The notes: generated by a model not told the origin, from the letters alone. A stretch of 64,000 nt of DNA from Eledone cirrhosa (GCA_964016885.1 OZ024744.1:107446001-107510000), one strand, 5' to 3'; positions 26,374-53,584 are shown, counted from the first letter of the stretch. Program-made: numbers and translations.

Positions 26374-26432
26374 TTTGTCTGATGAAGGCATACCATAATT
26401 TAATTTGGTATCCCTGAAATATGTATAATGAA
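26374..26432 (+). ncRNA. Minimal hammerhead ribozyme (family D), plus copy
   Basis: UUUGU-CUGAUGA-AGGCAUACCA..UGGUAUCCCU-GAAA-UAUGUAU-A^AUGAA, then AAUAAA. Stem I relies on G-U pairs. Confidence 0.65.
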
Positions 26433-26930: not shown

Positions 26931-29528
26931 ATCATCATCATCATCATCATCGTTTAACGTCCATGTTCCACGCTTGCATGGGTTTGGACGGGAGTTTTCC
27001 CACTTGAGGCAAGAGTGGTTGTCTTGCTCGTATAGGACTGTCTGGCAGGTTTTCTACAGCTGGATGCCCTTCCTAACACCAACCACATTTACAGTGTGGG
27101 ACTGGGAGGTTTTTACCGTGTTACCTACACGGCCATATTACAGCGTGGACTGTGTGTTTTTTTTTGTCGTGACACCTACACGACCTCATTTGTTTCGGCC
27201 TGGATGTTGTGGCACCAACATAACTTTACATTGAAAAGGGGCGGTGTGGATGGGGTGGGGGTGGTGGGACGGGGGTGTATTTTGTTAGAGGTGCCTACTG
27301 GCTGTAGTAGGTTTTACTTTGTATTTAGGTAAGGCGGGTCTTCTCTATTACTGAGTACCGCCAAAGATCACGGTCCAGTGACATTGTCTTGGAGAGGTGT
27401 AAGTGTGTGAGGTCGGAATTTAACAAGTCGTCCCAAGTTTTTCTGGGTCTGCCTACTCCGTGGCTACCGTCTATCTTTATTGCCCTGCTCTTTTTTATAC
27501 AGCTGTTGTCTTTCATGCGCATCACGTGACCATATCAACGTAGCCTTCTCTCGAGTAAACAACATCTGATCCCTCTTATTTCTAATTTTTCCCTTAGTTC
27601 GTTTATGCCTTGCCGTTCACGTATATTACTATTACACATCCAGCGGAGCATGCAAGCTTTGTTCCTCTCTAGTCTGCGTATATCCTCTGCACACAATACC
27701 CAGGTCTCACTGCCATGCAACATTGCTGTTCGTATGCAGGCATCGTACAACCTACCTTTCATTTTTACGGATAACCCTTTAGCGGCTAATAGTGGTATAA
27801 GCTCTCTGAACTTTTTCCATCCCGTTCTGACTCTAGCTACAGTACTTTCAGAGCACCCTCCCCCACTGCTGATTTTGTCACCCAGGTAACGGAAGCTGTC
27901 CACTATTTCTATAGAACCCTCTGCGCAATTGAAAGAGCTAGTGTTTTGTGGGCACTTGCTGCTGCTTATTGAACCAGAGCACCGGCCACATGTAAAATCT
28001 ATGTTCTTAGTTAGCTTACCTGTGATCCCACTACATCTTTTATGCACCCATACTTTGCATTTGGGACATAAAATGGAGTTTCTACCTACGCCTTTCCTAC
28101 ACACTGAGTATGGCCATTTCCCGGAAGGGACCGGCGCCTTATTTTTTTTCCTACAAACTAGAACTTTAGTCTTAGCTAGGTTAATTTTAAGGCCTTTTGA
28201 TTCTAGGCCGTGCTTCCGTGTTTGGAATTTCTTCTCTAGCTTGGCCATTGACTCAGCTATGAGCGTTAGATCATCTGCATATAGGAGTTCCTATGGGCAG
28301 CCGGTCTTGAACTCCACTGTTATAGCCTGAAGGGCAATAATAAATAGTAGGGGGCTAAGAACAGATCCCTGATGAACACCAACTTTTACGCTAAACTCTT
28401 CACTATATTCGTTGTTAATTCTAACCTTGCTGACTGTTTCTTTATACATGGCTTGTATAGCTCTCACAAGCCATTCATCAACACCTAGTTTTCTAAGAGC
28501 CCACCAGATAATGGAACGGTGGACTCTGTCGAAGGCTTTCTCCAAGTCAACAAAAGCTAAGTATAGGGGTTTACTTTTAGCTAGGTACTTCTCCTGTAGT
28601 TGTCGTACAATGAAAAGAGCGTCTGTTGTACTTTTGCCTGACACAAACCCGAACTGCATTTCATCTAGATCGATTCTCTCTCTGATTAGTTGCGCTATTA
28701 CTTTTTCCGTGACCTTCATGACCTGGTCGATTAATTTAATGCCTCTATAGTTACTCCTATCTAGGGCATCTCCTTTACCCTTGTAGCAGTTAATGATGAT
28801 GCTGCTACGCCAGTCCTTCGGAACAACCCCATTCTGTATGACTTGGTTTACTCTCTGGGTGTCCATGGTGTGTCCCACCGTTCCAGAGGTCTTCAGCATC
28901 TCAGCAACTATTTCCGAAGGTCCAGCCGCCTTACCCGTCTTCATATCTTTGATTGCCTTACTTATTATACTACCTTCGACTAACACTGCTGGTCCCTCTA
29001 TTGGGTCGATGTGGGGGAGACTATCCTTCTCCCATTTATTCTCCTCATTTAGTAGCCTCTTGTAGTGACACTTCCAAGCAACCTTCTTATCAGCATCGGT
29101 GATGGCAAGTATGCCATCATCGTTAAGTACACACTTCTCCCCGACAATATCACGATTTTCCTTGACACATTGCCTAGCAATCCTGAACACCTCACGTTTT
29201 TGGTCCTCGCGTTGTAGAACATGCTTGAACTTTCTTTCCTCTGCTTCCCTTCTTGCGAAGTACACTTGTCTCCTAGCTTCCCTCCTGGCCACTTAATAGT
29301 TTTCTCTACTTCCCCCATCCCGCCATACTTTCCAAGCCTGCTTTTTGGCCTTAATTGACTCCTCCACCTTACTGTTCCACCACCATGTTACTCTCCTCCT
29401 GCCTATAGGCCTGCTCCAGCCACAGACTTCGTCTGCCGCCATCAGCAGGTTTGCTTTCAGGAATTCCCACTGTTCCTCTATATTGTACGACTCTAAATGC
29501 TCTTCCTTACTATCGAAAGCATCAAGTA
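26931..29528 (-). mobile_element. RTE LINE family A, 2.6-kb 5'-truncated copy with in-frame stops
   Basis: ORFs 28291-29292, 27535-28248 and 27325-27525 are highly similar to 19781-22660. Confidence 0.95.
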
Positions 29529-30297: not shown

Positions 30298-30652
30298 TCA
30301 TCATTATCATCATTTAACATCCATTTTCCATGTTAACATGGCTAGGATGGGCTGCCCCTTTGTGAGAGATCCAGGTCAAAGGATTGTATTGCTCACACAG
30401 AACTGATTTTGGCGACGGCTGAATGCTTCCTGATGCCAACAACATTTACAGTGTTGTCTGGGTCCTTTTTGTCGTGACACTTGTACGACCACTTTACAGC
30501 ATTGACTTGGTGCTTTTTGTTGTGACACATGACCACTTAACAGTGTAGACTGGGCACTTTTTGTTGTGTCGCCAATATGACCCACTTTACCATGTGGACT
30601 GGGTGATTTTGTCGTGGCTCCAGTGGGACCACTTTATGCTGTGGGTTGGGGA
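30298..30652 (-). mobile_element. SINE-like element with ~5 degenerate 47-bp units (unexpanded relative of the satellite locus)
   Basis: Its flanks match 33712-33825 and 52623-52760; internal CCACTTTACAG..GACTGGG..TTTTGTCGTG repeats. Confidence 0.75.
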
Positions 30653-32493: not shown

Positions 32494-32650
32494 ATGTGGG
32501 CTCCTCCCACACCACCCCAGGATGATAATGATGTGTACATTGATCAAACACTATTCTTCTTATATGAGCCCACCATTATGCCGGAGACACAGCTGCCACC
32601 TGTTTATATCAGAAAGGAACATAAACGACCCAAAATTGAGACTGTTACAA
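32494..32650 (+). CDS. EP400: EP400/domino exon (MWAPPTPPQDDNDVYID..LPPVYIRKEHKRPK), phase 0/1
   Basis: catAG| ... A|GTacgt. Strong match to EP400 WTPPTPPQDDSDIYLD..LPPVYVRKE. Confidence 0.93.
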
Positions 32651-32779
32651 GTACGTATATTTTTATTTTTACAAATGTTGCTAAAGAAATATAACTTACC
32701 TCAAATTGTATGTATAAATGTGTTCATTGACATCAAATTCTTTGTATTAAAGTGTTTATATTTATATAAAAACCGTAAT

Positions 32780-33138
32780 TCATAAATTTATGTAAGAAGT
32801 TTTATGTTCCAAACACCCACCTAATAATGAGAAAGTTATATTACTAAATCTCTCCAATTTTCTGATTATTTTCAAAATGATCTGAAAACCATAGTCATTG
32901 CCTTTCATTAGAAATATGGTAACAAAACCGTTAAATTGTTTATATTCACCTAAAAATCTTCTAGCAAAATTTTATGAGGGATTTCGTAATATATCTAACT
33001 TTCTCATTTTTAAGCTGGTGTTTGGAACTTAACTTAAAGACTCTTACATAAAATTATGATAGAAGGTTTTTAGACGAATATAAACATTTTAAAACAAATA
33101 AATTTTTGTGTCGTAGAATTTGTTGTCAAAAGAGTTAA
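32780..33138. mobile_element. Two opposed copies of the AT-rich MITE-like repeat
   Basis: 32780-32935 has the same orientation as 31660-31820; 32960-33138 is reversed and ends AAAAGAGTTAA. Confidence 0.6.
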
Positions 33139-33289
33139 AAGAAATTCTGAACCCAATAACTTCATTCCAAAATATATTGAACTATGAACAATATATTGGT
33201 ATATTTGAGGAATTAATGTCAATGGTGTATTTATTGAAACATTAGTAAATTAATGGATTTCATTTCAAAATAAAAACTTTTGTAATCAG

Positions 33290-33560
33290 GTTATCATTGC
33301 TGATTTGTTGAGGTTTGGTCCAACAGCTTTTGTCACAACATATGGCCGACTCCATTGTTTAATTGCCCCACAACCATGCAGTTTTTCTCTGGCTATGGTC
33401 TGCTGGTTATGGTGAACAAGACTGAAAGGACTGAAAATATACTTTATTTTGGCCAAGCCCTCATCAAACTTTTCAAGATCCACTTATAAAGGAAGGTGAG
33501 GGTGGAGAGAACCAGTACATATTTTTAAAGGTGGGTGAATGTAGTGAGGATGACTTGAGT
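33290..33560 (+). mobile_element. L1/Tx1-like LINE 3' fragment
   Basis: Reverse-complement similarity to 63030-63260. Confidence 0.45.
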
Positions 33561-33711
33561 GAATGGACCTACTCTAAGTATGTACCTGTAGACTTTAGAG
33601 CTGAGAGATGCACTTGCCAAAGGTACCTATGGTGATTGGGGTGATCTCTGGTCAGTGGAGTTCCTAAATTATCCCTGGGTAATCCTGTTGTTATATTTCT
33701 ATTGTTACTTT

Positions 33712-33825
33712 CATCATCATCATCGTTTAACGTCCATCTTCCACTCTAGCATGCATTGGGGGACCATGATTTGCTCATTCAGAACTGATTTGGGCTTGGT
33801 TTCTATGGCTGGATGCCCTTCCTAA
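33712..33825 (-). mobile_element. 3' end of the SINE-like element hosting the satellite
   Basis: (CAT)n-CGTTTAACGTCC..GGCTGGATGCCCTTCCTAA runs directly into the first unit. Confidence 0.8.
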
Positions 33826-36800
33826 TACAGTGTGTGCTGGGTGATTGTTGCCGTGTCGCCTACACAACCTCTTTACAGTGTGTGCTGGGTGATTGTTGCC
33901 ATGTTGCCTACACGACCACTTTACAGTGTGTACTGGGTGATTGTTGCCGTGTCGCCTACACGACCTCTTTACAGTGGGTGCTGGGTGATTGTTGCCGTGT
34001 TGCCTACACGACCACTTTACAGTGTGTGCTGGGTGATTGTTGCCGTGTCACCTGGTGACCTCTTTACAGTGTGTACTGGGTGATTGTTGCCATGTCGCCT
34101 ACACGACCTCTTTACAGTGTGTGCTGGGTGATTGTTGCCGTGTCACCTGGTGACCACTTTACAGTGTGTGCTGGGTGATTGTTGCCGTGTCACTTGGTGA
34201 CCACTTTACAGTGTGTGCTGGGTGATTGTTGCCGTGTCACCTGGTGACCACTTTACAGTGTGTACTGGGTGATTGTTGCCGTGTCGCCTACACGACCTCT
34301 TTACAGTGTGTACTGGGTGATTGTTGCCGTGTCGCCTGGTGACCACTTTACAGTGTGTACTGGGTGATTGTTGCCGTGTGCCTACACGACCTCTTTACAG
34401 TGTGTACTGGGTGATTGTTGCCGAGTCGCCTACACGACCTCTTTACAGTGTGTACTGGGTGATTGTTGCCGTGTTGCCTACACGACCTCTTTACAGTGTG
34501 TACTGGGTGATTGTTGCCGTGTTGCCTACACGACCTCTTTACAGTGTGTACTGGGTGATTGTTGCCGTGTTGCCTACACGACCTCTTTACAGTGTGTGCT
34601 GGGTGATTGTTGCCGTGTCGCCTACACAACCACTTTACAGTGTGTGCTGGGTGATTGTTGCCGTGTCGCCTACACAACCACTTTACAGTGTGTGCTGGGT
34701 GATTGTTGCCGTGTCGCCTACACAACCTCTTTACAGTGTGTACTGGGTGATTGTTGCCGTGTTGCCTACACGACCACTTTACAGTGTGTACTGGGTGATT
34801 GTTGCCGTGTCGCCTACACGACCTCTTTACAGTGTGTACTGGGTGATTGTTGCCGTGACACCTACACAACCTCTTTACAGTGTGTGCTGGGTGATTGTTG
34901 TCGTGTTACCTACACGACCACTTTACAGTGTGTACTGGGTGATTGTTGCCGTGTCGCCTACACGACCTCTTTACAGTGTGTGCTGGGTGATTGTTGCCGT
35001 GTTGCCTACACAACCTCTTTACAGTGTGTACTGGGTGATTGTTGCCGTGTCACCTACACGACCACTTTACAGTGTGTACTGGGTGATTGTTGCCGTGTCA
35101 CCTGGTGACCTCTTTACAGTGTGTACTGGGTGATTGTTGCCGTGACACCTGGTGACCACTTTACAGTGTGTACTGGGTGATTGTTGCCGTGTCGCCTACA
35201 CGACCTCTTTACAGTGTGTGCTGGGTGATTGTTGCCGTGTTGCCTACACGACCTCTTTACAGTGTGTGCTGGGTGATTGTTGCCGTGTCACCTGGTGACC
35301 TCTTTACAGTGTGTGCTGGGTGATTGTTGCCGTGTCACCTGGTGCCCACTTTACAGTGTGTGCTGGGTGATTGTTGCCGTGTCACCTGGTGACCTCTTTA
35401 CAGTGTGTACTGGGTGATTGTTGCCGTGTCACCTGGTGACCACTTTACAGTGTGTACTGGGTGATTGTTGCCGTGTCGCCTACACGACCTCTTTACAGTG
35501 TGTGCTGGGTGATTGTTGCTGTGTTGCCTACACGACCACTTTACAGTGTGTGCTGGGTGATTGTTGCCGTGTCACCTGGTGACCTCTTTACAGTGTGTGC
35601 TGGGTGATTGTTGCCGTGTCACCTGGTGACCTCTTTACAGTGTGTACTGGGTGATTGTTGCCGTGTCACCTGGTGACCACTTTACAGTGTGTACTGGGTG
35701 ACTGTTGTTGTGTCGCCTACACGACCTCTTTACAGTGTGTACTGGGTGATTGTTGCCGTGTCGCCTACACGACCTCTTTACAGTGTGTACTGGGTGATTG
35801 TTGCCGTGTTGCCTACACGACCTCTTTACAGTGTGTACTGGGTGATTGTTGCCGTGTCGCCTGGTGACCACTTTACAGTGTGTACTGGGTGATTGTTGCC
35901 GTGTCGCCTGGTGACCACTTTACAGTGTGTACTGGGTGATTGTTGCCGTGTCGCCTACACGACCTCTTTACAGTGTGTACTGGGTGACTGTTGCCGTGTC
36001 GCCTACACAACCTCTTTACAGTGTGTACCGGGTGATTGTTGCCGTGTCGCCTGGTGACCACTTTACAGTGTGTACTGGGTGATTGTTGCTGTGTCGCCTA
36101 CACGACCTCTTTACAGTGTGTACTGGGTGATTGTTGCCGTGTCACCTACACAACCTCTTTACAGTGTGTACTGGGTGATTGTTGCCGTGTCGCCTACACG
36201 ACCTCTTTACAGTGTGTACTGGGTGATTGTTGCCGTGTCGCCTGGTGACCACTTTACAGTGTGTACTGGGTGATTGTTGCCGTGTTGCCTACACGACCTC
36301 TTTACAGTGTGTACTGGGTGATTGTTGTCGTGACACCTGGTGACCTCTTTACAGTGTGTACTGGGTGATTGTTGCCGTGTTGCCTACACGACCTCTTTAC
36401 AGTGTGTACTGGGTGATTGTTGCCGTGTTGCCTACACGACCTCTTTACAGTGTGTACTGGGTGATTGTTGCCGTTTCACCTACACGACCACTTTACAGTG
36501 TGTACTGGGTGATTGTTGCCGTGTCGCCTGGTGACCACTTTACAGTGTGTACTGGGTGATTGTTGCCGTGTTGCCTACACGACCTCTTTACAGTGTGTAC
36601 TGCGTGATTGTTGTCGTGACACCTGGTGACCTCTTTACAGTGTGTACTGGGTGATTGTTGCCGTGTTGCCTACACGACCTCTTTACAGTGTGTGCTGGGT
36701 GATTGTTGCCGTGTTGCCTACACGACCTCTTTACAGTGTGTGCTGGGTGATTGTTGCCGTGTTGCCTACACAACCTCTTTACAGTGTGTACTGGGTGATT

Positions 36801-39800
36801 GTTGCCGTGTCACCTACACGACCACTTTACAGTGTGTACTGGGTGATTGTTGCCGTGACACCTGGTGACCTCTTTACAGTGTGTACTGGGTGATTGTTGC
36901 CGTGACGCCTGGTGACCACTTTACAGTGTGTACTGGGTGATTGTTGCCGTGTCGCCTACACGACCTCTTTACAGTGTGTGCTGGGTGATTGTTGCCGTGT
37001 TGCCTACACGACCTCTTTACAGTGTGTGCTGGGTGATTGTTGCCGTGTCACCTGGTGACCTCTTTACAGTGTGTGCTGGGTGATTGTTGCCGTGTCACCT
37101 GGTGACCACTTTACAGTGTGTGCTGGGTGATTGTTGCTGTGTCACCTGGTGACCTCTTTACAGTGTGTACTGGGTGATTATTGCCGTGTCACCTGGTGAC
37201 CTCTTTACAGTGTGTACTGGGTGATTGTTGCCGTGTCGCCTACACGACCTCTTTACAGTGTGTGCTGGGTGATTGTTGCCGTGTTGCCTACACGACATCT
37301 TTACAGTGTGTGCTGGGTGATTGTTGCCGTGTCACCTGGTGACCTCTTTACAGTGTGTACTGGGTGATTGTTGCCGTGTCACCTGGTGACCACTTTACAG
37401 TGTGTCATGGGTGACTGTTGTTGTGTCGCCTACACGACCTCTTTACAGTGTGTACTGGGTGATTGTTGCCGTGTCGCCTACACGACCTCTTTACAGTGTG
37501 TACTGGGTGATTGTTGCCGTGTTGCCTACACGACCTCTTTACAGTGTGTACTGGGTGATTGTTGCCGTGTCGCCTGGTGACCTCTTTACAGTGTGTACTG
37601 GGTGATTGTTGCCGTGTCGCCTGGTGACCACTTTACAGTGTGTACTGGGTGATTGTTGCCGTGTCGCCTGGTGACCACTTTACAGTGTGTACTGGGTGAT
37701 TGTTGCCGTGTCGCCTACACGACCTCTTTACAGTGTGTACTGGGTGACTGTTGCCGTGTCGCCTACACAACCTCTTTACAGTGTGTACCGGGTGATTGTT
37801 GCCGTGTCGCCTGGTGACCACTTTACAGTGTGTACTGGGTGATTGTTGCTGTGTCGCCTACACGACCTCTTTACAGTGTGTACTGGGTGATTGTTGCCGT
37901 GTCACCTACACAACCTCTTTACAGTGTGTACTGGGTGATTGTTGCCGTGTCGCCTACACGACCTCTTTACAGTGTGTACTGGGTGATTGTTGCCGTGTCG
38001 CCTGGTGACCACTTTACAGTGTGTACTGGGTGATTGTTGCCGTGTTGCCTACACGACCTCTTTACAGTGTGTACTGGGTGATTGTTGCCGAGTCGCCTAC
38101 ACGACCTCTTTACAGTGTGTACTGGGTGATTGTTGCCGTGTTGCCTACACGACCTCTTTACAGTGTGTACTGGGTGATTGTTGCCGTGTTGCCTACACGA
38201 CCTCTTTACAGTGTGTACTGGGTGATTGTTGCCGTGTTGCCTACACGACCTCTTTACAGTGTGTGCTGGGTGATTGTTGCCGTGTCGCCTACACAACCAC
38301 TTTACAGTGTGTGCTGGGTGATTGTTGCCGTGTCGCCTACACAACCACTTTACAGTGTGTGCTGGGTGATTGTTGCCGTGTCGCCTACACAACCTCTTTA
38401 CAGTGTGTACTGGGTGATTGTTGCCGTGTTGCCTACACGACCACTTTACAGTGTGTACTGGGTGATTGTTGCCGTGTCGCCTACACGACCTCTTTACAGT
38501 GTGTACTGGGTGATTGTTGCCGTGACACCTACACAACCTCTTTACAGTGTGTGCTGGGTGATTGTTGTCGTGTTACCTACACGACCACTTTACAGTGTGT
38601 ACTGGGTGATTGTTGCCGTGTCGCCTACACGACCTCTTTACAGTGTGTGCTGGGTGATTGTTGCCGTGTTGCCTACACAACCTCTTTACAGTGTGTACTG
38701 GGTGATTGTTGCCGTGTCACCTACACGACCACTTTACAGTGTGTACTGGGTGATTGTTGCCGTGTCACCTGGTGACCTCTTTACAGTGTGTACTGGGTGA
38801 TTGTTGCCGTGACACCTGGTGACCACTTTACAGTGTGTACTGGGTGATTGTTGCCGTGTCGCCTACACGACCTCTTTACAGTGTGTGCTGGGTGATTGTT
38901 GCCGTGTTGCCTACACGACCTCTTTACAGTGTGTGCTGGGTGATTGTTGCCGTGTCACCTGGTGACCTCTTTACAGTGTGTGCTGGGTGATTGTTGCCGT
39001 GTCACCTGGTGCCCACTTTACAGTGTGTGCTGGGTGATTGTTGCCGTGTCACCTGGTGACCTCTTTACAGTGTGTACTGGGTGATTGTTGCCGTGTCACC
39101 TGGTGACCACTTTACAGTGTGTACTGGGTGATTGTTGCCGTGTCGCCTACACGACCTCTTTACAGTGTGTGCTGGGTGATTGTTGCTGTGTTGCCTACAC
39201 GACCACTTTACAGTGTGTGCTGGGTGATTGTTGCCGTGTCACCTGGTGACCTCTTTACAGTGTGTGCTGGGTGATTGTTGCCGTGTCACCTGGTGACCTC
39301 TTTACAGTGTGTACTGGGTGATTGTTGCCGTGTCACCTGGTGACCACATTACAGTGTGTACTGGGTGACTGTTGTTGTGTCGCCTACACGACCTCTTTAC
39401 AGTGTGTACTGGGTGATTGTTGCTGTGTCGCCTACACGACCTCTTTACAGTGTGTACTGGGTGATTGTTGCCGTGTTGCCTACACGACCTCTTTACAGTG
39501 TGTACTGGGTGATTGTTGCCGTGTCGCCTGGTGACCACTTTACAGTGTGTACTGGGTGATTGTTGCCGTGTCGCCTGGTGACCACTTTACAGTGTGTACT
39601 GGGTGATTGTTGCCGTGTCGCCTGGTGACCACTTTACAGTGTGTACTGGGTGATTGTTGCCGTGTCCCCTGGTGACCACTTTACAGTGTGTACTGGGTGA
39701 TTGTTGCCGTGTCGCCTACACGACCTCTTTACAGTGTGTGCTGGGTGATTGTTGCCGTGTTGCCTACACGACCTCTTTACAGTGTGTGCTGGGTGATTGT

Positions 39801-42800
39801 TGCCGTGTCACCTGGTGACCTCTTTACAGTGTGTGCTGGGTGATTGTTGCCTTGTCACCTGGTGACCTCTTTACAGTGTGTACTGGGTAATTGTTGCCAT
39901 GTCACCTGGTGACCACTTTACAGTGTGTACTGGGTGACTGTTGTTGTGTCGCCTACACGACCTCTTTACAGTGTGTACTGGGTGATTGTTGCCGTGTCGC
40001 CTACACGACCTCTTTACAGTGTGTACTGGGTGATTGTTGCCGTGTTGCCTACACGACCTCTTTACAGTGTGTCCTGGGTGATTGTTGCCGTGTCGCCTGG
40101 TGACCACTTTACAGTGTGTACTGGGTGATTGTTGCCGTGTCGCCTGGTGACCACTTTACAGTGTGTACTGGGTGATTGTTGCCGTGTCGCCTACACGACC
40201 TCTTTACAGTGTGTACTGGGTGACTGTTGCCGTGTCGCCTACACAACCTCTTTACAGTGTGTACTGGGTGATTGTTGCCGTGTCGCCTGGTGACCACTTT
40301 ACAGTGTGTACTGGGTGATTGTTGCCGTGTCGCCTACACGACCTCTTTACAGTGTGTACTGGGTGATTGTTGCCGTGTCACCTACACAACCTCTTTACAG
40401 TGTGTACTGGGTGATTGTTGCCGTGTCGCCTACACGACCTCTTTACAGTGTGTACTGGGTGATTTTTGCCGTGTCGCCTGGTGACCACTTTACAGTGTGT
40501 ACTGGGTGATTGTTGCCGTGTTGCCTACACAACCTCTTTACAGTGTGTACTGGGTGATTGTTGTCGTGACACCTGGTGACCTCTTTACAGTGTGTACTGG
40601 GTGATTGTTGCCGTGTTGCCTACACGACCTCTTTACAGTGTGTACTGGGTGATTGTTGCTGTGTTGCCTACACGACCTCTTTACAGTGTGTACTGGGTGA
40701 TTGTTGCCGTGTTGCCTACACGACCTCTTTACAGTGTGTGCTGGGTGATTGTTGCCGTGTCGCCTACACAACTACTTTACAGTGTGTGCTGGGTGATTGT
40801 TGCCGGGTCGCCTACACAACCACTTTACAGTGTGTGCTGGGTGATTGTTGCCGTGTCGCCTACACAAACTCTTTACAGTGTGTACTGGGTGATTGTTGCC
40901 GTGTTGCCTACACGACCACTTTACAGTGTGTACTGGGTGATTGTTGCCGTGTCGCCTACGCGACCTCTTTAGAGTGTGTACTGGGTGATTGTTGCCGTGA
41001 CACCTACACAACCTCTTTACAGTGTGTGCTGGGTGATTGTTGTCGTGTTGCCTACACGACCACTTTACAGTGTGTACTGGGTGATTGTTGCCGTGTCGCC
41101 TACACGACCTCTTTAGTGTGTACTGGGTGATTGTTGCCGTGTCGCCTACACAACCTCTTTACAGTGTGTGCTGGGTGATTGTTGCCGTGACACCTACACA
41201 ACCTCTTTACAGTGTGTGCTGGGTGATTGTTGTCGTGACACCTGGTGACCTCTTTACAGTGTGTACTGGGTGATTGTTGCCGTGACACCTGCTGACCTCT
41301 TTACAGTGTGTACTGGGTGATTGTTGCCGTGACACATGGTGACCTCTTTACAGTGTGTACTGGGTGATTGTTGCCGTGTCGCCTACACGACCTCTTTACA
41401 GTGTGTACTGGGTGATTATTGCCGTGTCGCCTACACGACCTCTTTACAGTGTGTACTGGGTGATTGTTGTCGTGACACCTGGTGACCTCTTTACAGTGTG
41501 TACTGGGTGATTGTTGCCGTGTCGCCTACACGACCTCTTTACAGTGTGTACTGGGTGATTGTTGTCGTGACACCTGGTGACCTCTTTACAGTGTGTACTG
41601 GGTGATTGTTGCCGTGTCGCCTACACGACCTCTTTACAGTGTGTACTGGGTGACTGTTGCCGTGTTGCCTGGTGACCTCTTTACAGTGTGTGCTGGGTGA
41701 TTGTTGCCGTGTCACCTGGTGACCTCTTTACAGTGTGTACTGGGTGATTGTTGTCGTGTCACCTGGTGACCTCTTTACAGTGTGTGCTGGGTGATTGTTG
41801 CCGTGTCACCTGGTGACCACTTTACAGTGTGTACTGGGTGATTGTTGCCGTGTCGCCTACACGACCTCTTTACAGTGTGTGCTGGGTGATTGTTGCCGTG
41901 TTGCCTACACGACCTCTTTACAGTGCGTGCTGGGTGATTGTTGCCGTGTCACCTGGTGACCACTTTACAGTGTGTACTGGGTGATTGTTGCCGTGTCGCC
42001 TACACGACCTCTTTACAGTGTGTGCTGGGTGATTGTTGCCGTGTTGCCTACACGACCTCATTACAGTGTGTGCTGGGTGATTGTTGCCGTGTCACCTGGT
42101 GACCTCTTTACAGTGTGTGCTGGGTGATTGTTGCCGTGTCACCTGGTGACCTCTTTACAGTGTGTACTGGGTGATTGTTGCCGTGTCACCTGGTGACCAC
42201 TTTACAGTGTGTACTGGGTGACTGTTGTTGTGACGCCTACACGACCTCTTTACAGTGTGTACTGGGTGATTGTTGCCGTGTCGCCTACACGACCTCTTTA
42301 CAGTGTGTACTGGGTGATTGTTGCCGTGTTGCCTACACGACCTCTTTACAGTGTGTACTGGGTGATTGTTGCCGTGTCGCCTGGTGACCACTTTACAGTG
42401 TGTACTGGGTGATTGTTGCCGTGTCGCCTGGTGACCACTTTACAGTGTGTACTGGGTGATTGTTGCCGTGTCACCTGGTGACCACTTTACAGTGTGTACT
42501 GGGTGATTGTTGCCGTGTCGCCTACACGACCTCTTTACAGTGTGTGCTGGGTGATTGTTGCCGTGTTGCCTACACGACCTCTTTACAGTGTGTGCTGGGT
42601 GATTGTTGCCGTGTCACCTGGTGACCTCTTTACAGTGTGTGCTGGGTGATTGTTGCCTTGTCACCTGGTGACCTCTTTACAGTGTGTACTGGGTGATTGT
42701 TGCCGTGTCACCTGGTGACCACTTTACAGTGTGTACTGGGTGACTGTTGTTGTGTCGCCTACACGACCTCTTTACAGTGTGTACTGGGTGATTGTTGCCG

Positions 42801-45800
42801 TGTCGCCTACACGACCTCTTTACAGTGTGTACTGGGTGATTGTTGCCGTGTTGCCTACACGACCTCTTTACAGTGTGTACTGGGTGATTGTTGCCGTGTC
42901 GCCTGGTGACCACTTTACAGTGTGTACTGGGTGATTGTTGCCGTGTCGCCTGGTGACCACTTTACAGTGTGTACTGGGTGATTGTTGCCGTGTCGCCTAC
43001 ACGACCTCTTTACAGTGTGTACTGGGTGACTGTTGCCGTGTCGCCTACACAACCTCTTTACAGTGTGTACCGGGTGATTGTTGCCGTGTCGCCTGGTGAC
43101 CACTTTACAGTGTGTACTGGGTGATTGTTGCTGTGTCGCCTACACGACCTCTTTACAGTGTGTACTGGGTGATTGTTGCCGTGTCACCTACACAACCTCT
43201 TTACAGTGTGTACTGGGTGATTGTTGCCGTGTCGCCTACACGACCTCTTTACAGTGTGTACTGGGTGATTGTTGCCGTGTCGCCTGGTGACCACTTTACA
43301 GTATGTACTGGGTGATTGTTGCCGTGTTGCCTACACGACCTCTTTACAGTGTGTACTGGGTGATTGTTGTCGTGACACCTGGTGACCTCTTTACAGTGTG
43401 TACTGGGTGATTGTTGCCGTGTTGCCTACACGACCTCTTTACAGTGTGTACTGGGTGATTGTTGCCGTGTTGCCTACACGACCTCTTTACAGTGTGTACT
43501 GGGTGATTGTTGCCGTTTCACCTACACGACCACTTTACAGTGTGTACTGGGTGATTGTTGCCGTGTCGCCTGGTGACCACTTTACAGTGTGTACTGGGTG
43601 ATTGTTGCCGTGTTGCCTACACGACCTCTTTACAGTGTGTACTGGGTGATTGTTGTCGTGACACCTGGTGACCTCTTTACAGTGTGTACTGGGTGATTGT
43701 TGCCGTGTTGCCTACACGACCTCTTTACAGTGTGTGCTGGGTGATTGTTGCCGTGTTGCCTACACGACCTCTTTACAGTGTGTGCTGGGTGATTGTTGCC
43801 GTGTTGCCTACACAACCTCTTTACAGTGTGTACTGGGTGATTGTTGCCGTGTCACCTACACGACCACTTTACAGTGTGTACTGGGTGATTGTTGCCGTGA
43901 CACCTGGTGACCTCTTTACAGTGTGTACTGGGTGATTGTTGCCGTGACGCCTGGTGACCACTTTACAGTGTGTACTGGGTGATTGTTGCCGTGTCGCCTA
44001 CACGACCTCTTTACAGTGTGTGCTGGGTGATTGTTGCCGTGTTGCCTACACAACCTCTTTACAGTGTGTGCTGGGTGATTGTTGCCGTGTCACCTGGTGA
44101 CCTCTTTACAGTGTGTGCTGGGTGATTGTTGCCGTGTCACCTGGTGACCACTTTACAGTGTGTGCTGGGTGATTGTTGCTGTGTCACCTGGTGACCTCTT
44201 TACAGTGTGTACTGGGTGATTATTGCCGTGTCACCTGGTGACCTCTTTACAGTGTGTACTGGGTGATTGTTGCCGTGTCGCCTACACGACCTCTTTACAG
44301 TGTGTGCTGGGTGATTGTTGCCGTGTTGCCTACACGACATCTTTACAGTGTGTGCTGGGTGATTGTTGCCGTGTCACCTGGTGACCTCTTTACAGTGTGT
44401 ACTGGGTGATTGTTGCCGTGTCACCTGGTGACCACTTTACAGTGTGTCATGGGTGACTGTTGTTGTGTCGCCTACACGACCTCTTTACAGTGTGTACTGG
44501 GTGATTGTTGCCGTGTCGCCTACACGACCTCTTTACAGTGTGTACTGGGTGATTGTTGCCGTGTTGCCTACACGACCTCTTTACAGTGTGTACTGGGTGA
44601 TTGTTGCCGTGTCGCCTGGTGACCTCTTTACAGTGTGTACTGGGTGATTGTTGCCGTGTCGCCTGGTGACCACTTTACAGTGTGTACTGGGTGATTGTTG
44701 CCGTGTCGCCTGGTGACCACTTTACAGTGTGTACTGGGTGATTGTTGCCGTGTCGCCTACACGACCTCTTTACAGTGTGTACTGGGTGACTGTTGCCGTG
44801 TCGCCTACACAACCTCTTTACAGTGTGTACCGGGTGATTGTTGCCGTGTCGCCTGGTGACCACTTTACAGTGTGTACTGGGTGATTGTTGCTGTGTCGCC
44901 TACACGACCTCTTTACAGTGTGTACTGGGTGATTGTTGCCGTGTCACCTACACAACCTCTTTACAGTGTGTACTGGGTGATTGTTGCCGTGTCGCCTACA
45001 CGACCTCTTTACAGTGTGTACTGGGTGATTGTTGCCGTGTCGCCTGGTGACCACTTTACAGTGTGTACTGGGTGATTGTTGCCGTGTTGCCTACACGACC
45101 TCTTTACAGTGTGTACTGGGTGATTGTTGTCGTGACACCTGGTGACCTCTTTACAGTGTGTACTGGGTGATTGTTGCCGTGTTGCCTACACGACCTCTTT
45201 ACAGTCTGTACTGGGTGATTGTTGCCGTGTTGCCTACACGACCTCTTTACAGTGTGTACTGGGTGATTGTTGCCGTTTCACCTACACGACCACTTTACAG
45301 TGTGTACTGGGTGATTGTTGCCGTGTCGCCTGGTGACCACTTTACAGTGTGTACTGGGTGATTGTTGCCGTGTTGCCTACACGACCTCTTTACAGTGTGT
45401 ACTGGGTGATTGTTGTCGTGACAGCTGGTGACCTCTTTACAGTGTGTACTGGGTGACTGTTGCCGTGTTGCCTACACGACCTCTTTACAGTGTGTGCTGG
45501 GTGATTGTTGCCGTGTTGCCTACACGACCTCTTTACAGTGTGTGCTGGGTGATTGTTGCCGTGTTGCCTACACAACCTCTTTACAGTGTGTACTGGGTGA
45601 TTGTTGCCGTGTCACCTACACGACCACTTTACAGTGTGTACTGGGTGATTGTTACCGTGACACCTGGTGACCTCTTTACAGTGTGTACTGGGTGATTGTT
45701 GCCGTGACGCCTGGTGACCACTTTACAGTGTGTACTGGGTGATTGTTGCCGTGTCGCCTACACGACCTCTTTACAGTGTGTGCTGGGTGATTGTTGCCGT

Positions 45801-48800
45801 GTTGCCTACACGACCTCTTTACAGTGTGTGCTGGGTGATTGTTGCCGTGTCACCTGGTGACCTCTTTACAGTGTGTGCTGGGTGATTGTTGCCGTGTCAC
45901 CTGGTGACCACTTTACAGTGTGTGCTGGGTGATTGTTGCTGTGTCACCTGGTGACCTCTTTACAGTGTGTACTGGGTGATTATTGCCGTGTCACCTGGTG
46001 ACCTCTTTACAGTGTGTACTGGGTGATTGTTGCCGTGTCGCCTACACGACCTCTTTACAGTGTGTGCTGGGTGATTGTTGCCGTGTTGCCTACACGACAT
46101 CTTTACAGTGTGTGCTGGGTGATTGTTGCCGTGTCACCTGGTGACCTCTTTACAGTGTGTACTGGGTGATTGTTGCCATGTCACCTGGTGACCACTTTAC
46201 AGTGTGTCATGGGTGACTGTTGTTGTGTCGCCTACACGACCTCTTTACAGTGTGTACTGGGTGATTGTTGCCGTGTCGCCTACACGACCTCTTTACAGTG
46301 TGTACTGGGTGATTGTTGCCGTGTTGCCTACACGACCTCTTTACAGTGTGTACTGGGTGATTGTTGCCGTGTCGCCTGGTGACCACTTTACAGTGTGTAC
46401 TGGGTGATTGTTGCCGTGTCGCCTGGTGACCACTTTACAGTGTGTACTGGGTGATTGTTGCCGTGTTGCCTACACGACCTCTTTACAGTGTGTGCTGGGT
46501 GACTGTTGCCGTGTCACCTGGTGACCTCTTTACAGTGTGTGCTGGGTGATTGTTGCCGTGTCACCTGGTGACCTCTTTACAGTGTGTACTGGGTGATTGT
46601 TGCCGTGTCACCTGGTGACCACTTTACAGTGTGTCATGGGTGACTGTTGTTGTGTCGCCTACACGACCTCTTTACAGTGTGTACTGGGTGATTGTTGCCG
46701 TGTCGCCTACACGACCTCTTTACAGTGTGTACTGGGTGATTGTTGCCGTGTTGCCTACACGACCTCTTTACAGTGTGTACTGGGTGATTGTTGCCGTGTC
46801 GCCTGGTGACCACTTTACAGTGTGTACTGGGTGATTGTTGCCGTGTCGCCTGGTGACCACTTTACAGTGTGTACTGGGTGATTTTTGCCGTGTTGCCTAC
46901 ACGACCTCTTTACAGTGTGTGCTGGGTGACTGTTGCCGTGTCACCTGGTGACCTCTTTACAGTGTGTGCTGGGTGATTGTTGCCGTGTCACCTGGTGACC
47001 TCTTTACAGTGTGTACTGGGTGATTGTTGCCGTGTCACCTGCTGACCACTTTACAGTGTGTACTGGGTGACTGTTGTGTTGCCTACACGACCTCTTTACA
47101 GTGTGTACTGGGTGATTGTTGCCGTGTCGCCTACACGACCTCTTTACAGTGTGTACTGGGTGATTGTTGCCGTGTTGCCTACACGACCTCTTTACAGTGT
47201 GTACTGGGTGATTGTTGCCGTGTCGCCTGGTGACCGCTTTACAGTGTGTACTGGGTGATTGTTGCAGTGTCGCCTGGTGACCACTTTACAGTGTGTACTG
47301 GGTGATTGTTGTCGTGACACCTGGTGACCTCTTTACAGTGTGTACTGGGTGATTGTTGCCGTGTTGCCTACACGGCCTCTTTACAGTGTGTACTGGGTGA
47401 TTGTTGCCGTGCTGCCTACACGACCTCTTTACAGTGTGTACTGGGTGATTGTTGCCATGTCGCCTACACGACCTCTTTACAGTGTGTGCTGGGTGATTGT
47501 TGCCGTGTCGCCTACACAACCACTTTACAGTGTGTGCTGGGTGATTGTTGCCGGGTCGCCTACACAACCACTTTACAGTGTGTGCTGGGTGATTGTTGCC
47601 GTGTCGCCTACACAACCTCTTTACAGTGTGTACTGGGTGATTGTTGCCGTGTTGCCTACACGACCACTTTACAGTGTGTACTGGGTGATTGTTGCCGTGT
47701 CGCCTACACGACCTCTTTACAGTGTGTACTGGGTGATTGTTGCCGTGACACCTACACAACCTCTTTACAGTGTGTGCTGGGTGATTGTTGTCGTGTTGCC
47801 TACACGACCACTTTACAGTGTGTACTGGGTGATTGTTGCCGTGTCGCCTACACGACCTCTTTACAGTGTGTACTGGGTGATTGTTGTCGTGACACCTGGT
47901 GACCTCTTTACAGTGTGTACTGGGTGATTGTTGCCGTGACACCTGGTGACCTCTTTACAGTGTGTACTGGGTGATTGTTGCCGTGACACCTGGTGACCTC
48001 TTTACAGTGTGTACTGGGTGATTGTTGCCGTGTCGCCTACACGACCTCTTTACAGTGTGTACTGGGTGATTGTTGCCGTGTCGCCTACACAACCTCTTTA
48101 CAGTGTGTGCTGGGTGATTGTTGCCGTGACACCTACACAACCTCTTTACTGTGTGTGCTGGGTGATTGTTGTCGTGACACTTGGTGACCTCTTTACAGTG
48201 TGTACTGGGTGATAGTTGCCGTGACACCTGGTGACCTCTTTACAGTGTGTACTGGGTGATTGTTGCTGTGACACCTGGTGACCTCTTTACAGTGTGTACT
48301 GGGTGATTGTTGCCGTGTCGCCTACACGACCTCTTTACAGTGTGTACTGGGTGATTGTTGCCGTGTCGCCTACACGACCTCTTTACAGTGTGTACTGGGT
48401 GATTGTTGTCGTGACACCTGGTGACCTCTTTACAGTGTGTACTGGGTGATTGTTGCCGTGTCGCCTACACGACCTCTTTACAGTGTGTACTGGGTGACTG
48501 TTGCCGTGTTGCCTGGTGACCTATTTACAGTGTGTGCTGGGTGATTGTTCCCGTGTCGCCTACACGATCTCTTTACAGTGTGTACTGGGTGACTGTTGCC
48601 GTGTTGCCTACACAACCTCTTTACAGTGTGTACTGGGCGATTGTTGCCGTGTCGCCTACACGACCTCTTTACAGTGTGTACTGGGTGATTGTTGCCGTGT
48701 CGCCTACACGACCTCTTTACAGTGTGTACTGGGTGATTGTTGCCGTGTCACCTACACAACCTCTTTACAGTGTGTACTGGGTGATTGTTGCTGTGTTGCC

Positions 48801-51800
48801 TCCACGACCTCTTTACAGTGTGTACTGGGTGATCGTTGCCGTGACACCTGGTGACCTCTTTACAGTGTGTACTGGGTGATTGTTGCCGTGTCACCTGGTG
48901 ACCTCTTTACAGTGTGTACTGGGTGATTGTTGCCGTGTCGCCTACACAACCTCTTTACAGTGTGTGCTGGGTGATTGTTGCCGTGACACCTGGTGTCCAC
49001 TTTACAGTGTGTGCTGGGTGGTTGTTGCCGTGTCACCTGGTGACCTCTTTACAGTGTGTACTGGGTGATTGTTGCCGTGTCGCCTGGTGACCTCTTTACA
49101 GTGTGTACTGGGTGATTGTTGCCGTGTCGCCTACACGACCTCTTTACAGTGTGTACTGGGTGATTGTTGCCGTGTCGCCTACACGACCTCTTTACAGTGT
49201 GTGCTGGGTGATTGTTGCCGTGTCGCCTACACGACCTCTTTACAGTGTGTACTGGGTGATTGTTGCCGTGTCGCCTACACAACCTCTTTACAGTGTGTGC
49301 TGGGTGATTGTTGCCGTGTCGCCTACACGACCTCTTTACAGTGTGTACTGGGTGATTGTTGCCGTGTCGCCTACACGACCTCTTCACAGTGTGTGCTGGG
49401 TGATTGTTGCCGTGTCGCCTACACGACCTCTTTACAGTGTGTGCTGGGTGATTGTTGCCGTGTTGCCTACACGACCTCTTTACAGTGTGTACTGGGTGAT
49501 TGTTGCCGTGTCGCCTACACAACCTCTTTACAGTGTGTGCTGGGTGATTGTTGCCGTGTCGCCTACACGACCTCTTTACAGTGTGTGCTCGGTGATTGTT
49601 GCTGTGTCGCCTACACGACCTCTTTACAGTGTGTACTGGGTGATTGTTGCCGTGTCGCCTACACAACTTGTTTACAGTGTGTGCTGGGTGATTGTTGCCG
49701 TGACACCTGGTGACCACTTTACAGTGTGTGCTGGGTGATTGTTGCCGTGTCACCTGGTGACCTCTTTACAGTGTGTACTGGGTGATTGTTGCCGTGTCGC
49801 CTGGTGACCTCTTTACAGTGTGTACTGGGTGATTGTTGCCGTGTCGCCTACACGACCTCTTTACAGTGTGTACTGGGTGATTGTTGCCGTGTCGCCTACA
49901 CGACCTCTTTACAGTGTGTGCTGGGTGATTGTTGCCGTGTCGCCTACACGACCTCTTTACAGTGTGTACTGGGTGATTGTTGCCGTGACACCTGGTGACC
50001 ACTTTACAGTGTGTACTGGGTGATTGTTGCCCTGTCACCTGGTGACCACTTTACAGTGTGTACTGGGTGATTGTTGCCGTGTTACCTGGTGACCACTTTA
50101 CAGTGTGTACTGGGTGATTGTTGCCGTGTCACCTGGTGACCACTTTACAGTGTGTACTGGGTGATTGTTGCCGTGTCACCTGGTGACCACTTTACAGTGT
50201 GTGCTGGGTGATTGTTGCCGTGTCACCTGGTGACCTCTTTATAGTGTGTACTGGGTGATTGTTGCCGTGTCACCTGGTGACCACTTTACAGTGTGTGCTG
50301 GGTGATTGTTGCCATGTCACCTGGTGACCTCTTTACAGTGTGTACTGGGTGATTGTTGCCGTGTCGCCTGGTGACCTCTTTACAGTGTGTGCTGGGGACC
50401 TCTTTACAGTGTGTGCTGGGTGATTGTTGCCGTGTCACCTGGTGACCACTTTACAGTGTGTACTGGGTGATTGTTGCCGTGTCACCTGGTGACCACTTTA
50501 CAGTGTGTACTGGGTGATTGTTGCCGCGTCGCCTACACGACCTCTTTACAGTGTGTGCTGGGTGATTGTTGCCGTGTCACCTGGTGACCTCTTTACAGTG
50601 TGTACTGGGTGATTGTTGTCGTGTCGCCTGGTGACCTCTTTACAGTGTGTACTGGGTGATTGTTGCCGCGTCGCCTACACGACCTCTTTACAGTGTGTAC
50701 TGGGTGATTGTTGCCGTGTCACCTGGTGACCACTTTACAGTGTGTGCTGGGTGATTGTTGCCGTGTCACCTGGTGACCTCTTTATAGTGTGTACTGGGTG
50801 ATTGTTGCCGTGTCACCTGGTGACCACTTTACAGTGTGTGCTGGGTGATTGTTGCCATGTCACCTGGTGACCTCTTTACAGTGTGTACTGGGTGATTGTT
50901 GCCGTGTCGCCTGGTGACCTCTTTACAGTGTGTGCTGGGGACCTCTTTACAGTGTGTGCTGGGTGATTGTTGCCGTGTCACCTGGTGACCACTTTACAGT
51001 GTGTACTGGGTGATTGTTGCCGTGTCACCTGGTGACCACTTTACAGTGTGTACTGGGTGATTGTTGCCGCGTCGCCTACACGACCTCTTTACAGTGTGTG
51101 CTGGGTGATTGTTGCCGTGTCACCTGGTGACCTCTTTACAGTGTGTACTGGGTGATTGTTGTCGTGTCGCCTGGTGACCTCTTTACAGTGTGTACTGGGT
51201 GATTGTTGCCGCGTCGCCTACACGACCTCTTTACAGTGTGTACTGGGTGATTGTTGCCGTGTCACCTGGTGACCTCTTTACAGTGTGTGCTGGGTGATTG
51301 TTGCCGTGTCACCTGGTGACCACTTTACAGTGTGTACTGGGTGATTGTTGCCGTGTCACCTGGTGACCACTTTACAGTGTGTACTGGGTGATTGTTGCCG
51401 TGTCGCCTACACGACCTCTTTACAGTGTGTGCTGGGTGATTGTTGCCGTGTCGCCTACACGACCTCTTTACAGTGTGTGCTGGGTGATTGTTGCCGTGTC
51501 ACCTGGTGACCACTTTACAGTGTGTGCTGGGTGATTGTTGCCGTGTCACCTGGTGACCACTTTACAGTGTGTGCTGGGTGATTGTTGCCGTGTCACCTGG
51601 TGACCTCTTTACAGTGTGTACTGGGTGATTGTTGCCGTGACACCTGGTGACCTCTTTACAGTGTGTGCTGGGTGATTGTTGCCGTGTCACCTGGTGACCT
51701 CTTTACAGTGTGTACTGGGTGATTGTTGTCGTGTCGCCTGGTGACCTCTTTACAGTGTGTACTGGGTGATTGTTGCCGTGTTGCCTACACAACCTCTTTA

Positions 51801-52622
51801 CAGTGTGTGCTGGGTGATTGTTGCCGTGTCACCTGGTGACCTCTTTACAGTGTGTACTGGGTGATTGTTGCCGTGTCGCCTGGTGACCACTTTACAGTGT
51901 GTGCTGGGTGATTGTTACTGTGTCGCCTACACGACCTCTTTACAGTGTGTACTGGGTGACTGTTGCCGTGTCGCCTACACAACATCTTTACAGTGTGTAC
52001 TGGGTGATTGTTGCCGTGTCGCCTGGTGACCACTTTACAGTGTGTGCTGGGTGATTGTTACCGTGTCGCCTACACGACCTCTTTACAGTGTGTACTGGGT
52101 GACTGTTGCCGTGTCGCCTACACAACATCTTTACAGTGTGTACTGGGTGATTGTTGCCGTGTCGCCTGGTGACCACTTTACAGTGTGTGCTGGGTGATTG
52201 TTGCCGTGACACCTGGTGACCTCTTTACAGTGTGTACTGGGTGATTGTTACCGTGTCGCCTACACGACCTCTTTACAGTGTGTACTGGGTGATTGTTGCC
52301 GTGTTGCCTACACGATCTCTTAACAGTGTGTACTGGGTGATTGTTGTTGTGTCGCCTGGTGACCTCTTTACAGTGTGTGCTGGGTGATTGTTGCCGTGTC
52401 ACCTGGTGACCTCTTTACAGTGTGTACTGGGTGATTGTTGCCGTGTTGCCTACACAACCTCTTTACAGTGTGTGCTGGGTGATTGTTGCCGTGTTGCCTA
52501 CACGATCTCTTAACAGTGTGTACTGGGTGATTGTTGTTGTGTCGCCTGGTGACCTCTTTACAGTGTGTACTGGGTGATTGTTGTTGTGTCGCCTGGTGAC
52601 CACTTTACAGTGTGTACTGGGT
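33826..52622. repeat. Intronic satellite, ~395 units of 47/48 bp (CTTTACAGTGTGTRCTGGGTGATTGTTGCCGTGTYRCCT[ACAC|GGT]GACCW), with higher-order repeats
   Basis: Continuous tandem array inside EP400 intron 32651-52999. Degenerate units continue to ~52760. Confidence 0.98.
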
Positions 52623-52999
52623 ACTTTTTGTATTGATATCGACATGACCACTATAGTGAGGACTGGGTACTCGCTTTTGTCATGACACTTACATGACCAC
52701 TATACTATGGTCTGGGCTCTTTTATCGTGGATCCAAAGGGGATCACTTTATAGAGGAGTGTGGAAGCCTTAGAGGAGTAGGGAATTTGGGGCTGTAGGTA
52801 TAGGGGTGGGGAGATGGTAGGGAATGGTGTTGCCTACTCTGTACCCCCCCCCCCTCTTTGTTACCTGTTTTTGTTTTTCTGTTTATCTTTTGTTTATTTG
52901 TATTGCCTGAATGTCATTGGCCCCAGTGGACAATAAAGAAATTATCATTATTGTTGTTGTAAAATGTCAATTCTTTATGAAATTTTGTCTCCAAAATAG

Positions 53000-53229
53000 C
53001 TCGTAAACAAAAACAACGCAAGGAGGAGCAACTGCGCGTTCCACGGTCGTTGTTTGATCGTCCAACAGCAGCACAGCTTAAGATGCGACGTGAGGCAAAA
53101 ATGCAGAAACTAAAGCATGGATTAATCAAAAATTTCCGTTCCATATCATCTGTGTCCAACAAACAACCCCTGGAACCGGCTGAAGAACATCCAGAATGGT
53201 TAATTCATGAAGATTGGGCATTGTTACAG
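53000..53229 (+). CDS. EP400: EP400/domino exon (RKQKQRK..PRSLFDRP..HPEWLIHEDWALLQ), phase 1/0
   Basis: aatAG| ... CAG|GTaagt. Phase matches the previous exon; matches EP400 PRSLFDR and PEWLISEDWALLQ. Confidence 0.95.
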
Positions 53230-53584
53230 GTAAGTTAAAGTTCAGGATTAAAGTTTTGAGAGACATGTACATTTCTTGTAATTATATCGTATTACTATTT
53301 ATTAACTTGTTCTACAATCATTATTGTTGTTTTACGTCCATTGTTGTGACCAAATTAAAAAGAAATCATTAAAAAATTATCGATTTTTCATTGTTTAAAA
53401 AGATAAAGTGTCTTTAACTCTTGATGTCATCGTAGAGGCACCGTACTGACATATTCTTACTCTTGGGCATTAAAAACCTAGCAGAACATATCACTTTCCA
53501 TGTTGGAACCAGCTGATTTCTTCCAAAGAATGTAAAGAAGAGAGAAAGTGAGATGAAGGGAAATAGAGGAAGAACCATGCCTGG

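What the first reader, a model, noticed from the sequence alone, without database searches (positions are those of the whole stretch)
33712..52760. 18.8-kb intronic satellite born inside a retroelement, with a monomer shared with RTE 3' UTRs
The array starts right after a SINE/RTE-type tail and GGATGCCCTTCCTAA, and ends in degenerate units plus the element's other flank. The monomer (TTTACAGTGTG..CTGGG..CCGTGTTGCCTACACGACC) occurs 2-3 times in each family-A RTE 3' UTR (e.g. 19941-20045, 27083-27190) and in many old SINE-like copies. It makes up ~92% of a 20,349-bp intron of an essential chromatin gene. It is far more GC/CpG-rich than its surroundings, so it could affect methylation or elongation (inference).
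Basis: partly seen in the sequence, partly recalled or inferred. Interest (0 to 1): 0.72.

Follow-up and report, generated by a model that had tools for sequence, protein, structure and literature searches.

The report
LINE tail repeat balloons inside EP400
An 18.8-kb run of a 48-letter repeat fills most of one intron of the chromatin gene EP400 and sits inside an old, broken jumping-gene tail, where it likely grew on the spot; arrays of the same unit sit on such tails at many other places in this genome, so this is one case of a known route to satellite DNA, with no effect on the gene shown.

Summary
The array is real: 395 units of 47/48 bp (33826-52622), 92% of a 20,349-bp EP400 intron that one public contig skips exactly. 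It lies inside an old, 5'-truncated RTE-like LINE 3' UTR (33712-~52838, minus strand). The host is not a SINE and not family A, but an older family whose 39 sampled relatives carry 1-8 units (one has 33 or more). Two diagnostic words are private to this locus (166 of 166 and 157 of 157 genome matches). Internal blocks are 99.6-99.8% identical, while the host is 8-14% diverged, so growth likely followed insertion. The locus is not special: 18 of 23 arrays examined adjoin such a tail, one spans 66 kb, and 3 arrays of 7 or more units lay in 390 kb of blind samples. Short-read word depth gives about half the assembled unit count (length polymorphism or over-assembly). CpG density is five times that of the intron flanks but close to that of young LINE copies. 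No effect on EP400 was tested. It works like Ogre 3'-UTR satellites, here from a LINE. This scan noted the same process at other loci of this genome.

The parts
32494..32650 (+). EP400/domino exon upstream of the intron
   Evidence: phmmer to human p400 2247-2294, E 8.5e-16; covered without mismatch by a 1076-nt contig of run X4
32651..52999 (+). 20,349-bp GT..AG intron of EP400
   Evidence: the X4 contig joins 32650 to 53000 exactly
33712..33825 (-). 3' end of the host LINE (family B): (ATG)n tail and terminal segment, with two short deletions (about 32 bp inside, 13 bp next to the array)
   Evidence: 102/111 to family B against 98/116 to family A; alignments
33826..52622 (-). Tandem array of about 395 units, two interspersed types (48 and 47 bp), with 0.4-2.7-kb internal block duplications
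   Evidence: private to this locus
52623..52750 (-). Remaining unexpanded, degenerate UTR units of the host
   Evidence: aligned to family-B relatives
52751..52838 (-). Rest of the host's 3' UTR up to its 5' truncation point, shortly before where relatives enter the ORF end
   Evidence: 189/220 over 52623-52843
53000..53230 (+). EP400 exon downstream of the intron
   Evidence: phmmer to p400 2301-2378, E 5.7e-12; X4 contig
19946..20047 (-). Two homologous units in the 3' UTR of a young family-A LINE copy (related, not the parent)
27088..27190 (-). Two homologous units in the 3' UTR of a second family-A copy
30445..30640 (-). Old multi-unit LINE 3' UTR copy, unexpanded (about 4 units); shows the seed state
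   Evidence: blastn to the host's right flank, E 3.7e-18; TRF row 30448-30568

Best explanation
The array sits inside the 3' UTR of an old, 5'-truncated RTE-like LINE lying antisense in an EP400 intron, and it likely grew there after insertion from the few 48-bp units that this LINE family already carries, likely by slippage and unequal recombination. Steps: (1) shown: related LINE families and a tRNA-headed SINE share this unit in 1-8 copies at their 3' ends. (2) shown: this copy kept both sides of the element around the array. (3) inferred: a tail-proximal unit was duplicated, picked up private changes including the 47-bp type, and was then multiplied in blocks of 0.4-2.7 kb. (4) shown: similar arrays, mostly with their own variants, sit on tails of four different classes elsewhere, so the LINE likely acts as a genome-wide seeder of minisatellites. 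(5) inferred: the array is methylated like ordinary gene-body DNA, is spliced out, and is probably near neutral and variable in length.
For: Seed state: 39 relatives found by the right flank alone carry 1-8 detected units, median 3; one has 33 or more. 30 of the 39 continue into the LINE ORF end (tblastn). Timing: the host is 86% (right flank) and 92% (tail) identical to the family majority; monomers within a type are 94.6% identical; blocks of 2664, 1667 and 1713 bp recur at 99.6-99.8% (monomer-order score 46 against a maximum of 5 in 200 shuffles). Private variant: all 166 genome matches of a 30-letter word of the 47-bp type (up to 2 mismatches) lie in this window; a 31-letter word has 157 genome matches, the count of its neighbouring word in this array. 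No close sister host: best other matches are 72-86%; best monomer matches elsewhere are 86% or less among 39 scored candidates. Recurrence: 18 of 23 arrays (window included) have a tail match on the expected side, and 1 of the other 5 has a strong UTR/ORF match on the far side; consensus identity between arrays averages 85%. Hosts fall into four tail classes. A 65.8-kb array on C3 has the tail on one side and UTR plus ORF end on the other. Blind sample: 34 unit runs in 39 x 10 kb, 3 of them with 7 or more units, 26 of 34 with the tail motif, 0 hits in the reversed control. Splicing: one X4 contig joins the two exons exactly. Methylation: deamination-type alleles per site are 0.13-0.19 at CpG against 0.005-0.008 at other C/G.
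Against: Word depth in one sample (X1-X3) gives about 42-55% of the assembled count, so the 18.8-kb length may hold for one allele only or be over-assembled. Five of 23 arrays lack a tail match, and an array on C1 (L123/L124) shows no host flank on either side. Only 120 of 158 sampled monomers had their nearest neighbour in their own array, 20 tied, and two arrays share an identical consensus, so some copying between loci is not excluded. CpG allele counts are not independent events. The monomer does not fold better than shuffles (z -1.7 to +0.3), so no hairpin driver is shown. Expansion itself was not observed.
Confidence: 0.8

Rival explanations
1. The array is real but much shorter than assembled, or strongly polymorphic: the near-identical internal blocks are assembly duplications, or one allele is about 19 kb and the other short.
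For: A shared 31-letter word has 2027 assembled copies and depth 8500 in X1 (4.2 per copy, equal to the single-copy depth 4.24). Private words give 326/157 = 2.1 and 105/60 = 1.75 per copy; X2 gives 315 and X3 453 against single-copy depths of 4.4-5.6. Blocks are 99.6-100% identical.
Against: The depth still implies at least about 70-85 copies of a word private to this locus, so a multi-kb array exists. The long blocks differ by 0.2-0.4% and the array has no gap. The runs are one sample that may be another individual, and the tool warns that contig depth is no copy number. This rival changes the length, not the origin.
Confidence: 0.45
2. An existing satellite family spread between loci (gene conversion, extrachromosomal circles) and landed in homologous LINE UTRs, or the long array was retrotransposed with its element as SVA VNTRs are.
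For: Arrays are 85% alike on average and two share a consensus. 38 of 158 monomers were tied or nearer to another array. Some arrays lack flanks.
Against: This array's variants occur nowhere else. No host relative above 86% exists. The likeness between arrays matches their likeness to the ancestral units (85-88%). An 18.8-kb insert is far longer than the roughly 3.5-kb contigs holding full-length relatives.
Confidence: 0.1
3. The array has been kept or enlarged by selection because it tunes EP400 (methylation, elongation delay or decoy splice sites).
For: It makes up 92% of the intron, has 5-fold more CpG than the flanks, and carries 266 acceptor-like and 365 donor-like motifs on the gene's strand. 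All of this is sequence description only.
Against: Equal or longer arrays occur elsewhere. Multi-kb arrays of other units fill 2 of 39 blind samples almost wholly. The one transcript-like contig skips the intron cleanly. The variants look like neutral CpG decay.
Confidence: 0.07

Closest known systems
Satellites from tandem repeats in the 3' UTR of Ogre/Tat LTR retrotransposons (Lathyrus FabTR families; PMC7004042, abstract and Discussion read; Macas 2009 seen only as cited there)
   Same: Short, variable tandem arrays in an element's 3' UTR are spread by transposition and occasionally expand in place; intermediate lengths are visible.
   Different: The host here is a non-LTR LINE in an animal; arrays keep private variants; this one is intronic. 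Pericentromeric enrichment was not tested.
SINE-derived satellites of squamates (PMC10702118, abstract and Discussion read)
   Same: Tandem arrays with the parent element's terminus still attached, up to about 1000 units per locus, repeated independent origins.
   Different: There, long arrays become homogeneous between loci and favour subtelomeres, and the parent is a SINE. Here the unit is already repeated in the LINE and this array's variants are private.
Helentron-carried satellite-like arrays of the Pacific oyster (PMC7492417, PMC8268682: search listings only; PMC12628747: passages read, which also name LINE untranslated regions as a source of satDNA)
   Same: Mollusc genomes with dispersed arrays inside mobile elements.
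   Different: DNA transposon hosts, not LINE 3' ends.
RTE-clade LINEs (PMC2887409 passages; RTE-2_OV in PMC9115989 passages)
   Same: Single ORF with AP endonuclease and RT in full-length relatives, simple-repeat tail, many 5'-truncated copies that look like SINEs.
   Different: Those papers describe microsatellite tails; the passages seen mention no 48-bp UTR unit or minisatellites. Relatives here carry a PHD-like finger after the RT. Clade not confirmed by a tree.

Membership tests
RTE-clade LINE (host) | Single ORF with AP endonuclease and reverse transcriptase | tested here: met
   Family-A ORF pieces hit RVT_1; the best full-length relatives are about 1040-1100 aa with PF03372 and PF00078. 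Family B matches the same ORF end in 30 of 39 relatives. The host copy itself is truncated before the ORF.
RTE-clade LINE (host) | 3' end of simple-sequence repeats, no poly(A) | tested here: met
   (ATG)n-type tail at 33712-33725 and in relatives; feature from PMC2887409 passages.
RTE-clade LINE (host) | Target-site duplication | tested here: inconclusive
   Only a 7-bp match (33702 and 52858), 20 bp outside the homology end.
RTE-clade LINE (host) | Placement in the RTE clade by RT phylogeny | not tested
   No named RTE reference among the 120 listed hits; 'RTE-like' rests on domain layout, tail and recall.
Satellite expanded from an element-internal 3' UTR repeat (Ogre type) | Short, variable tandem array in the parent's 3' UTR | tested here: met
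   1-8 units in 38 of 39 relatives; 2 units in family A.
Satellite expanded from an element-internal 3' UTR repeat (Ogre type) | Expanded arrays keep element sequence at their ends, with intermediate sizes | tested here: met
   18 of 23 arrays with tail; sizes 7-20, 25-103, 395 and about 1370 units.
Satellite expanded from an element-internal 3' UTR repeat (Ogre type) | Parent is an Ogre/Tat LTR retrotransposon | tested here: not met
   Parent is a non-LTR LINE: it works like the Ogre case but is not a member.
Satellite expanded from an element-internal 3' UTR repeat (Ogre type) | Long arrays concentrated at centromeres | not testable with these tools
   Centromere positions are unknown; this array is intronic.
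SINE-derived satellite | Parent is a SINE (small-RNA head) | tested here: not met
   The host's far side is LINE UTR and its relatives enter the ORF. One other array (L030) does carry the SINE-class tail.
Classical satellite DNA family | Monomers homogenised across loci | tested here: not met
   Private variant 166 of 166; 85% mean identity between arrays.
SVA-like mobile VNTR | Array mobilised with its element (near-identical hosts elsewhere) | tested here: not met
   Best other hosts 72-86% among 40 scored of 1401 candidates.
Known structured RNA or ribozyme | Rfam match at the family's threshold | tested here: not met
   Nothing near a gathering score in two UTR stretches.

The most novel reading that the evidence does not exclude
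The 48-bp unit is a conserved two-hairpin RNA module that these LINEs and their SINE need at their 3' ends. Because it is pre-duplicated, each insertion plants a seed, and the family has produced on the order of ten thousand hypervariable minisatellites. Some, like this one, change the length of introns in essential genes by tens of kilobases between alleles and so tune expression or splicing.
Probability: 0.15. Interest if true: 0.72.

Novelty: new variant of a known kind. Interest (0 to 1): 0.4.

Why it matters
It shows satellite birth with the parent still attached on both sides, from a LINE rather than from the LTR elements, SINEs or Helentrons of the published cases. Because very many copies plant the same seed in different places, the genome is a natural experiment on what lets a tandem repeat run away (unit number, unit likeness, recombination, transcription). 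It may also add to intron and genome size in this animal. For EP400 itself nothing beyond a long, cleanly skipped intron is shown.

Tried and rejected
Ribozyme or known RNA family in the unit: Rfam found nothing near threshold in two UTR stretches; the wider scan listed only sub-threshold miRNA hits on AT microsatellites (150 of 330 rows shown). Unusual folding as the driver of expansion: DNA z-scores -1.7 to +0.3 for 6 strands; RNA z-scores -2.4 to -0.4 with no consistent strand. Conserved RNA hairpins: 94.5% of cells pair and 2 of 16 pairs change on both sides, but the number of such pairs does not exceed shuffles (463/500), I drew the structure from these sequences and picked the 16 copies closest to their family majority, and RNAalifold prefers a different 3' helix; kept as a weak lead only. 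A pseudoknot was considered by eye and dropped because its register differs between families; not run. Coding role: ORFs over the array are stop-free repeat frames. Sister-species intron: no related genome is held and all listed runs carry one organism label. No RNA holder was listed on record. X4 shows no cover on the private array words; this blank is not used as evidence. A direct genome-wide count of arrays by one long spaced pattern could not be run; the count rests on blind samples. Literature: six searches with results or blanks (searches listed papers; two searches returned none) showed no paper describing this unit or its arrays; I read only parts of PMC13282606 (part 1 of 3), PMC5786205, PMC4824008, PMC9115989, PMC12628747, PMC2887409 (passages), PMC7004042 and PMC10702118 (abstract, Discussion). 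No supplements were read; repeat libraries in them (for example of PMC13282606) or in Repbase/Dfam may already hold this unit.

Full report
Observation. TRF finds one array at 33826-52622, period 48, 395.4 copies, 90% matches, without gaps. It mixes a 48-bp and a 47-bp type (214 and 176 of 396 pieces). The flanking exons match human p400 at consecutive positions and join in frame across a GT..AG intron of 20,349 bp, of which the array is 92.4%. A 1076-nt contig of run X4 covers 32494-32650 and 53000-53230 in adjacent record positions, and its loose end is the upstream exon's last 30 letters. So the intron is skipped exactly in that contig; the run's kind is not on record. That the animal is octopus-like is my recollection from its repeat landscape and was not tested.

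The host. The array starts after a simple-repeat tail and a conserved 15-letter motif and ends in degenerate units. A genome search with the right flank alone gave 40 scored places out of 1401 candidates; I fetched all 39 other than the window's own. They form an older LINE family, here called B: 30 of 39 continue into the ORF end. The host matches B better than the neighbouring family A in the tail (102/111 against 98/116) and in the unit (79-88% against 70-80%), and its right flank is 189/220 to B. It is cut off at about 52838, before the ORF, which explains its SINE-like look. Family A encodes RT and a PHD-like finger, and its full-length relatives have one ORF with endonuclease and RT. This layout and the tail fit the RTE clade as described in PMC2887409 (passages), but no tree was made.

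Seed and growth. The 39 relatives, chosen without regard to arrays, carry 1-8 detected units (median 3), and one has 33 or more. Four of them on C2 lie close together and may be local duplicates. None of 16 young family-A ends has a 48-bp array. The host is 8-14% diverged from its family majority, monomers of one type are 94.6% alike, and blocks of 2664, 1667 and 1713 bp recur at 99.6-99.8%, far beyond shuffled monomer order (score 46 against at most 5). A word of the 47-bp type has 166 genome matches, all in this window. I infer growth in place, long after insertion, by slippage followed by block duplication. The step itself was not observed.

Not a single event. A four-unit query hit arrays on many contigs at 77-86% (39 scored of 2550 candidates). 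In 20 of these loci plus the window, 23 arrays were found. Eighteen have the tail on the expected side, consensus identity between arrays averages 85%, and hosts fall into four tail classes. A 65.8-kb array on C3 has tail on one side and UTR plus ORF end on the other (interior not read in full), and arrays of 16.6 kb and at least 19 kb lie on C1. Scaled up, that is very roughly 23,000 arrays (Poisson range about 5,000-67,000; my arithmetic). Against full independence: five arrays lack a tail, one C1 array lacks both flanks, two arrays share a consensus, and only 120 of 158 sampled monomers were nearest to their own array, with 20 ties.

Length check. In run X1 a shared word with 2027 assembled copies has depth 8500, or 4.2 per copy, equal to the single-copy depth of 4.24. 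Private words give 2.1 and 1.75 per copy; X2 and X3 give similar ratios. So a multi-kb array exists in that sample but at about half the assembled count. Unequal alleles, another individual, library bias or over-assembly could each explain this. The three runs are one sample, and the tool warns that contig depth is no copy number.

CpG and function. The array has 38 CpG/kb against 8 in the intron flanks, but young LINE copies nearby have 30-32 and the same observed/expected ratio. Variant alleles are about 23-fold enriched for transitions at CpG (counts are not independent events), which suggests germline methylation. The gene's strand carries 266 acceptor-like and 365 donor-like motifs, yet the one transcript-like contig skips them all. 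No effect on EP400 is shown.

The unit. It is shared by three LINE tail classes and a SINE. Two hairpins can be drawn, with two pairs changing on both sides, but controls are mixed, RNAalifold differs in part, folding z-scores are weak and Rfam has no match. A role in reverse-transcriptase recognition is a guess.

Comparison. The process matches satellites grown from Ogre 3'-UTR repeats (PMC7004042) and SINE-derived satellites of squamates (PMC10702118). A review names LINE untranslated regions as a known source (PMC12628747). What differs is the host class, the pre-duplicated unit and the private variants at many loci. My searches showed no paper on this unit; supplements and repeat databases were not seen. 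Earlier notes of this scan report the same process at other loci of this genome; I consulted them after forming my reading and do not count them as support.

Verdict. Real, well explained, a new variant of a known kind; this locus is one of many. Interest 0.4.

Noticed in passing
window 10673-11015; L113 4282-4959; also L068, L072, L073, L112, L122: A second tandem class in young family-A ends: a 112-bp unit spanning the first 48-bp unit and the tail motif, 3.1 copies at 98% in the window and 6.1 copies in L113. Six of 16 young ends show the motif more than once, so such duplications may arise at or soon after insertion.
   Followed up: partly
L033 1854-5562 (C23, 9.74 Mb): Two arrays of the unit (53 and 25 copies) meet in opposite orientation, suggesting a fold-back or template switch.
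   Followed up: no
L123 4827-5210 (C1, 421.45 Mb): A 47-bp array (8 copies or more) built from a piece of the LINE ORF, close to a 16.6-kb array of the UTR unit, which is followed by an unrelated 49-bp array.
   Followed up: no
window 20183-21397 and 27538-28290 (minus strand): The LINE ORF carries a PHD-like finger right after the RT domain, also in many database relatives.
   Followed up: partly
L082, L098, L105: Blind 10-kb samples hit unrelated multi-kb arrays (94-bp period 4 kb, 30-bp period 8.5 kb or more, 84-bp period 10 kb or more): the genome is very rich in tandem repeats.
   Followed up: no
window 52889-52958 and 62866-62933: A short 3' end of another element with a polyadenylation-like signal and a simple-repeat tail follows the host on the plus strand.
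   Followed up: no
window 14073-14511 and 25860-26480: Long inverted-repeat (fold-back) elements in the intergenic part; the second draws sub-threshold miRNA hits.
   Followed up: no
window 32734-33125: A high-copy interspersed repeat lies in the 5' part of the same intron (very high depth).
   Followed up: no
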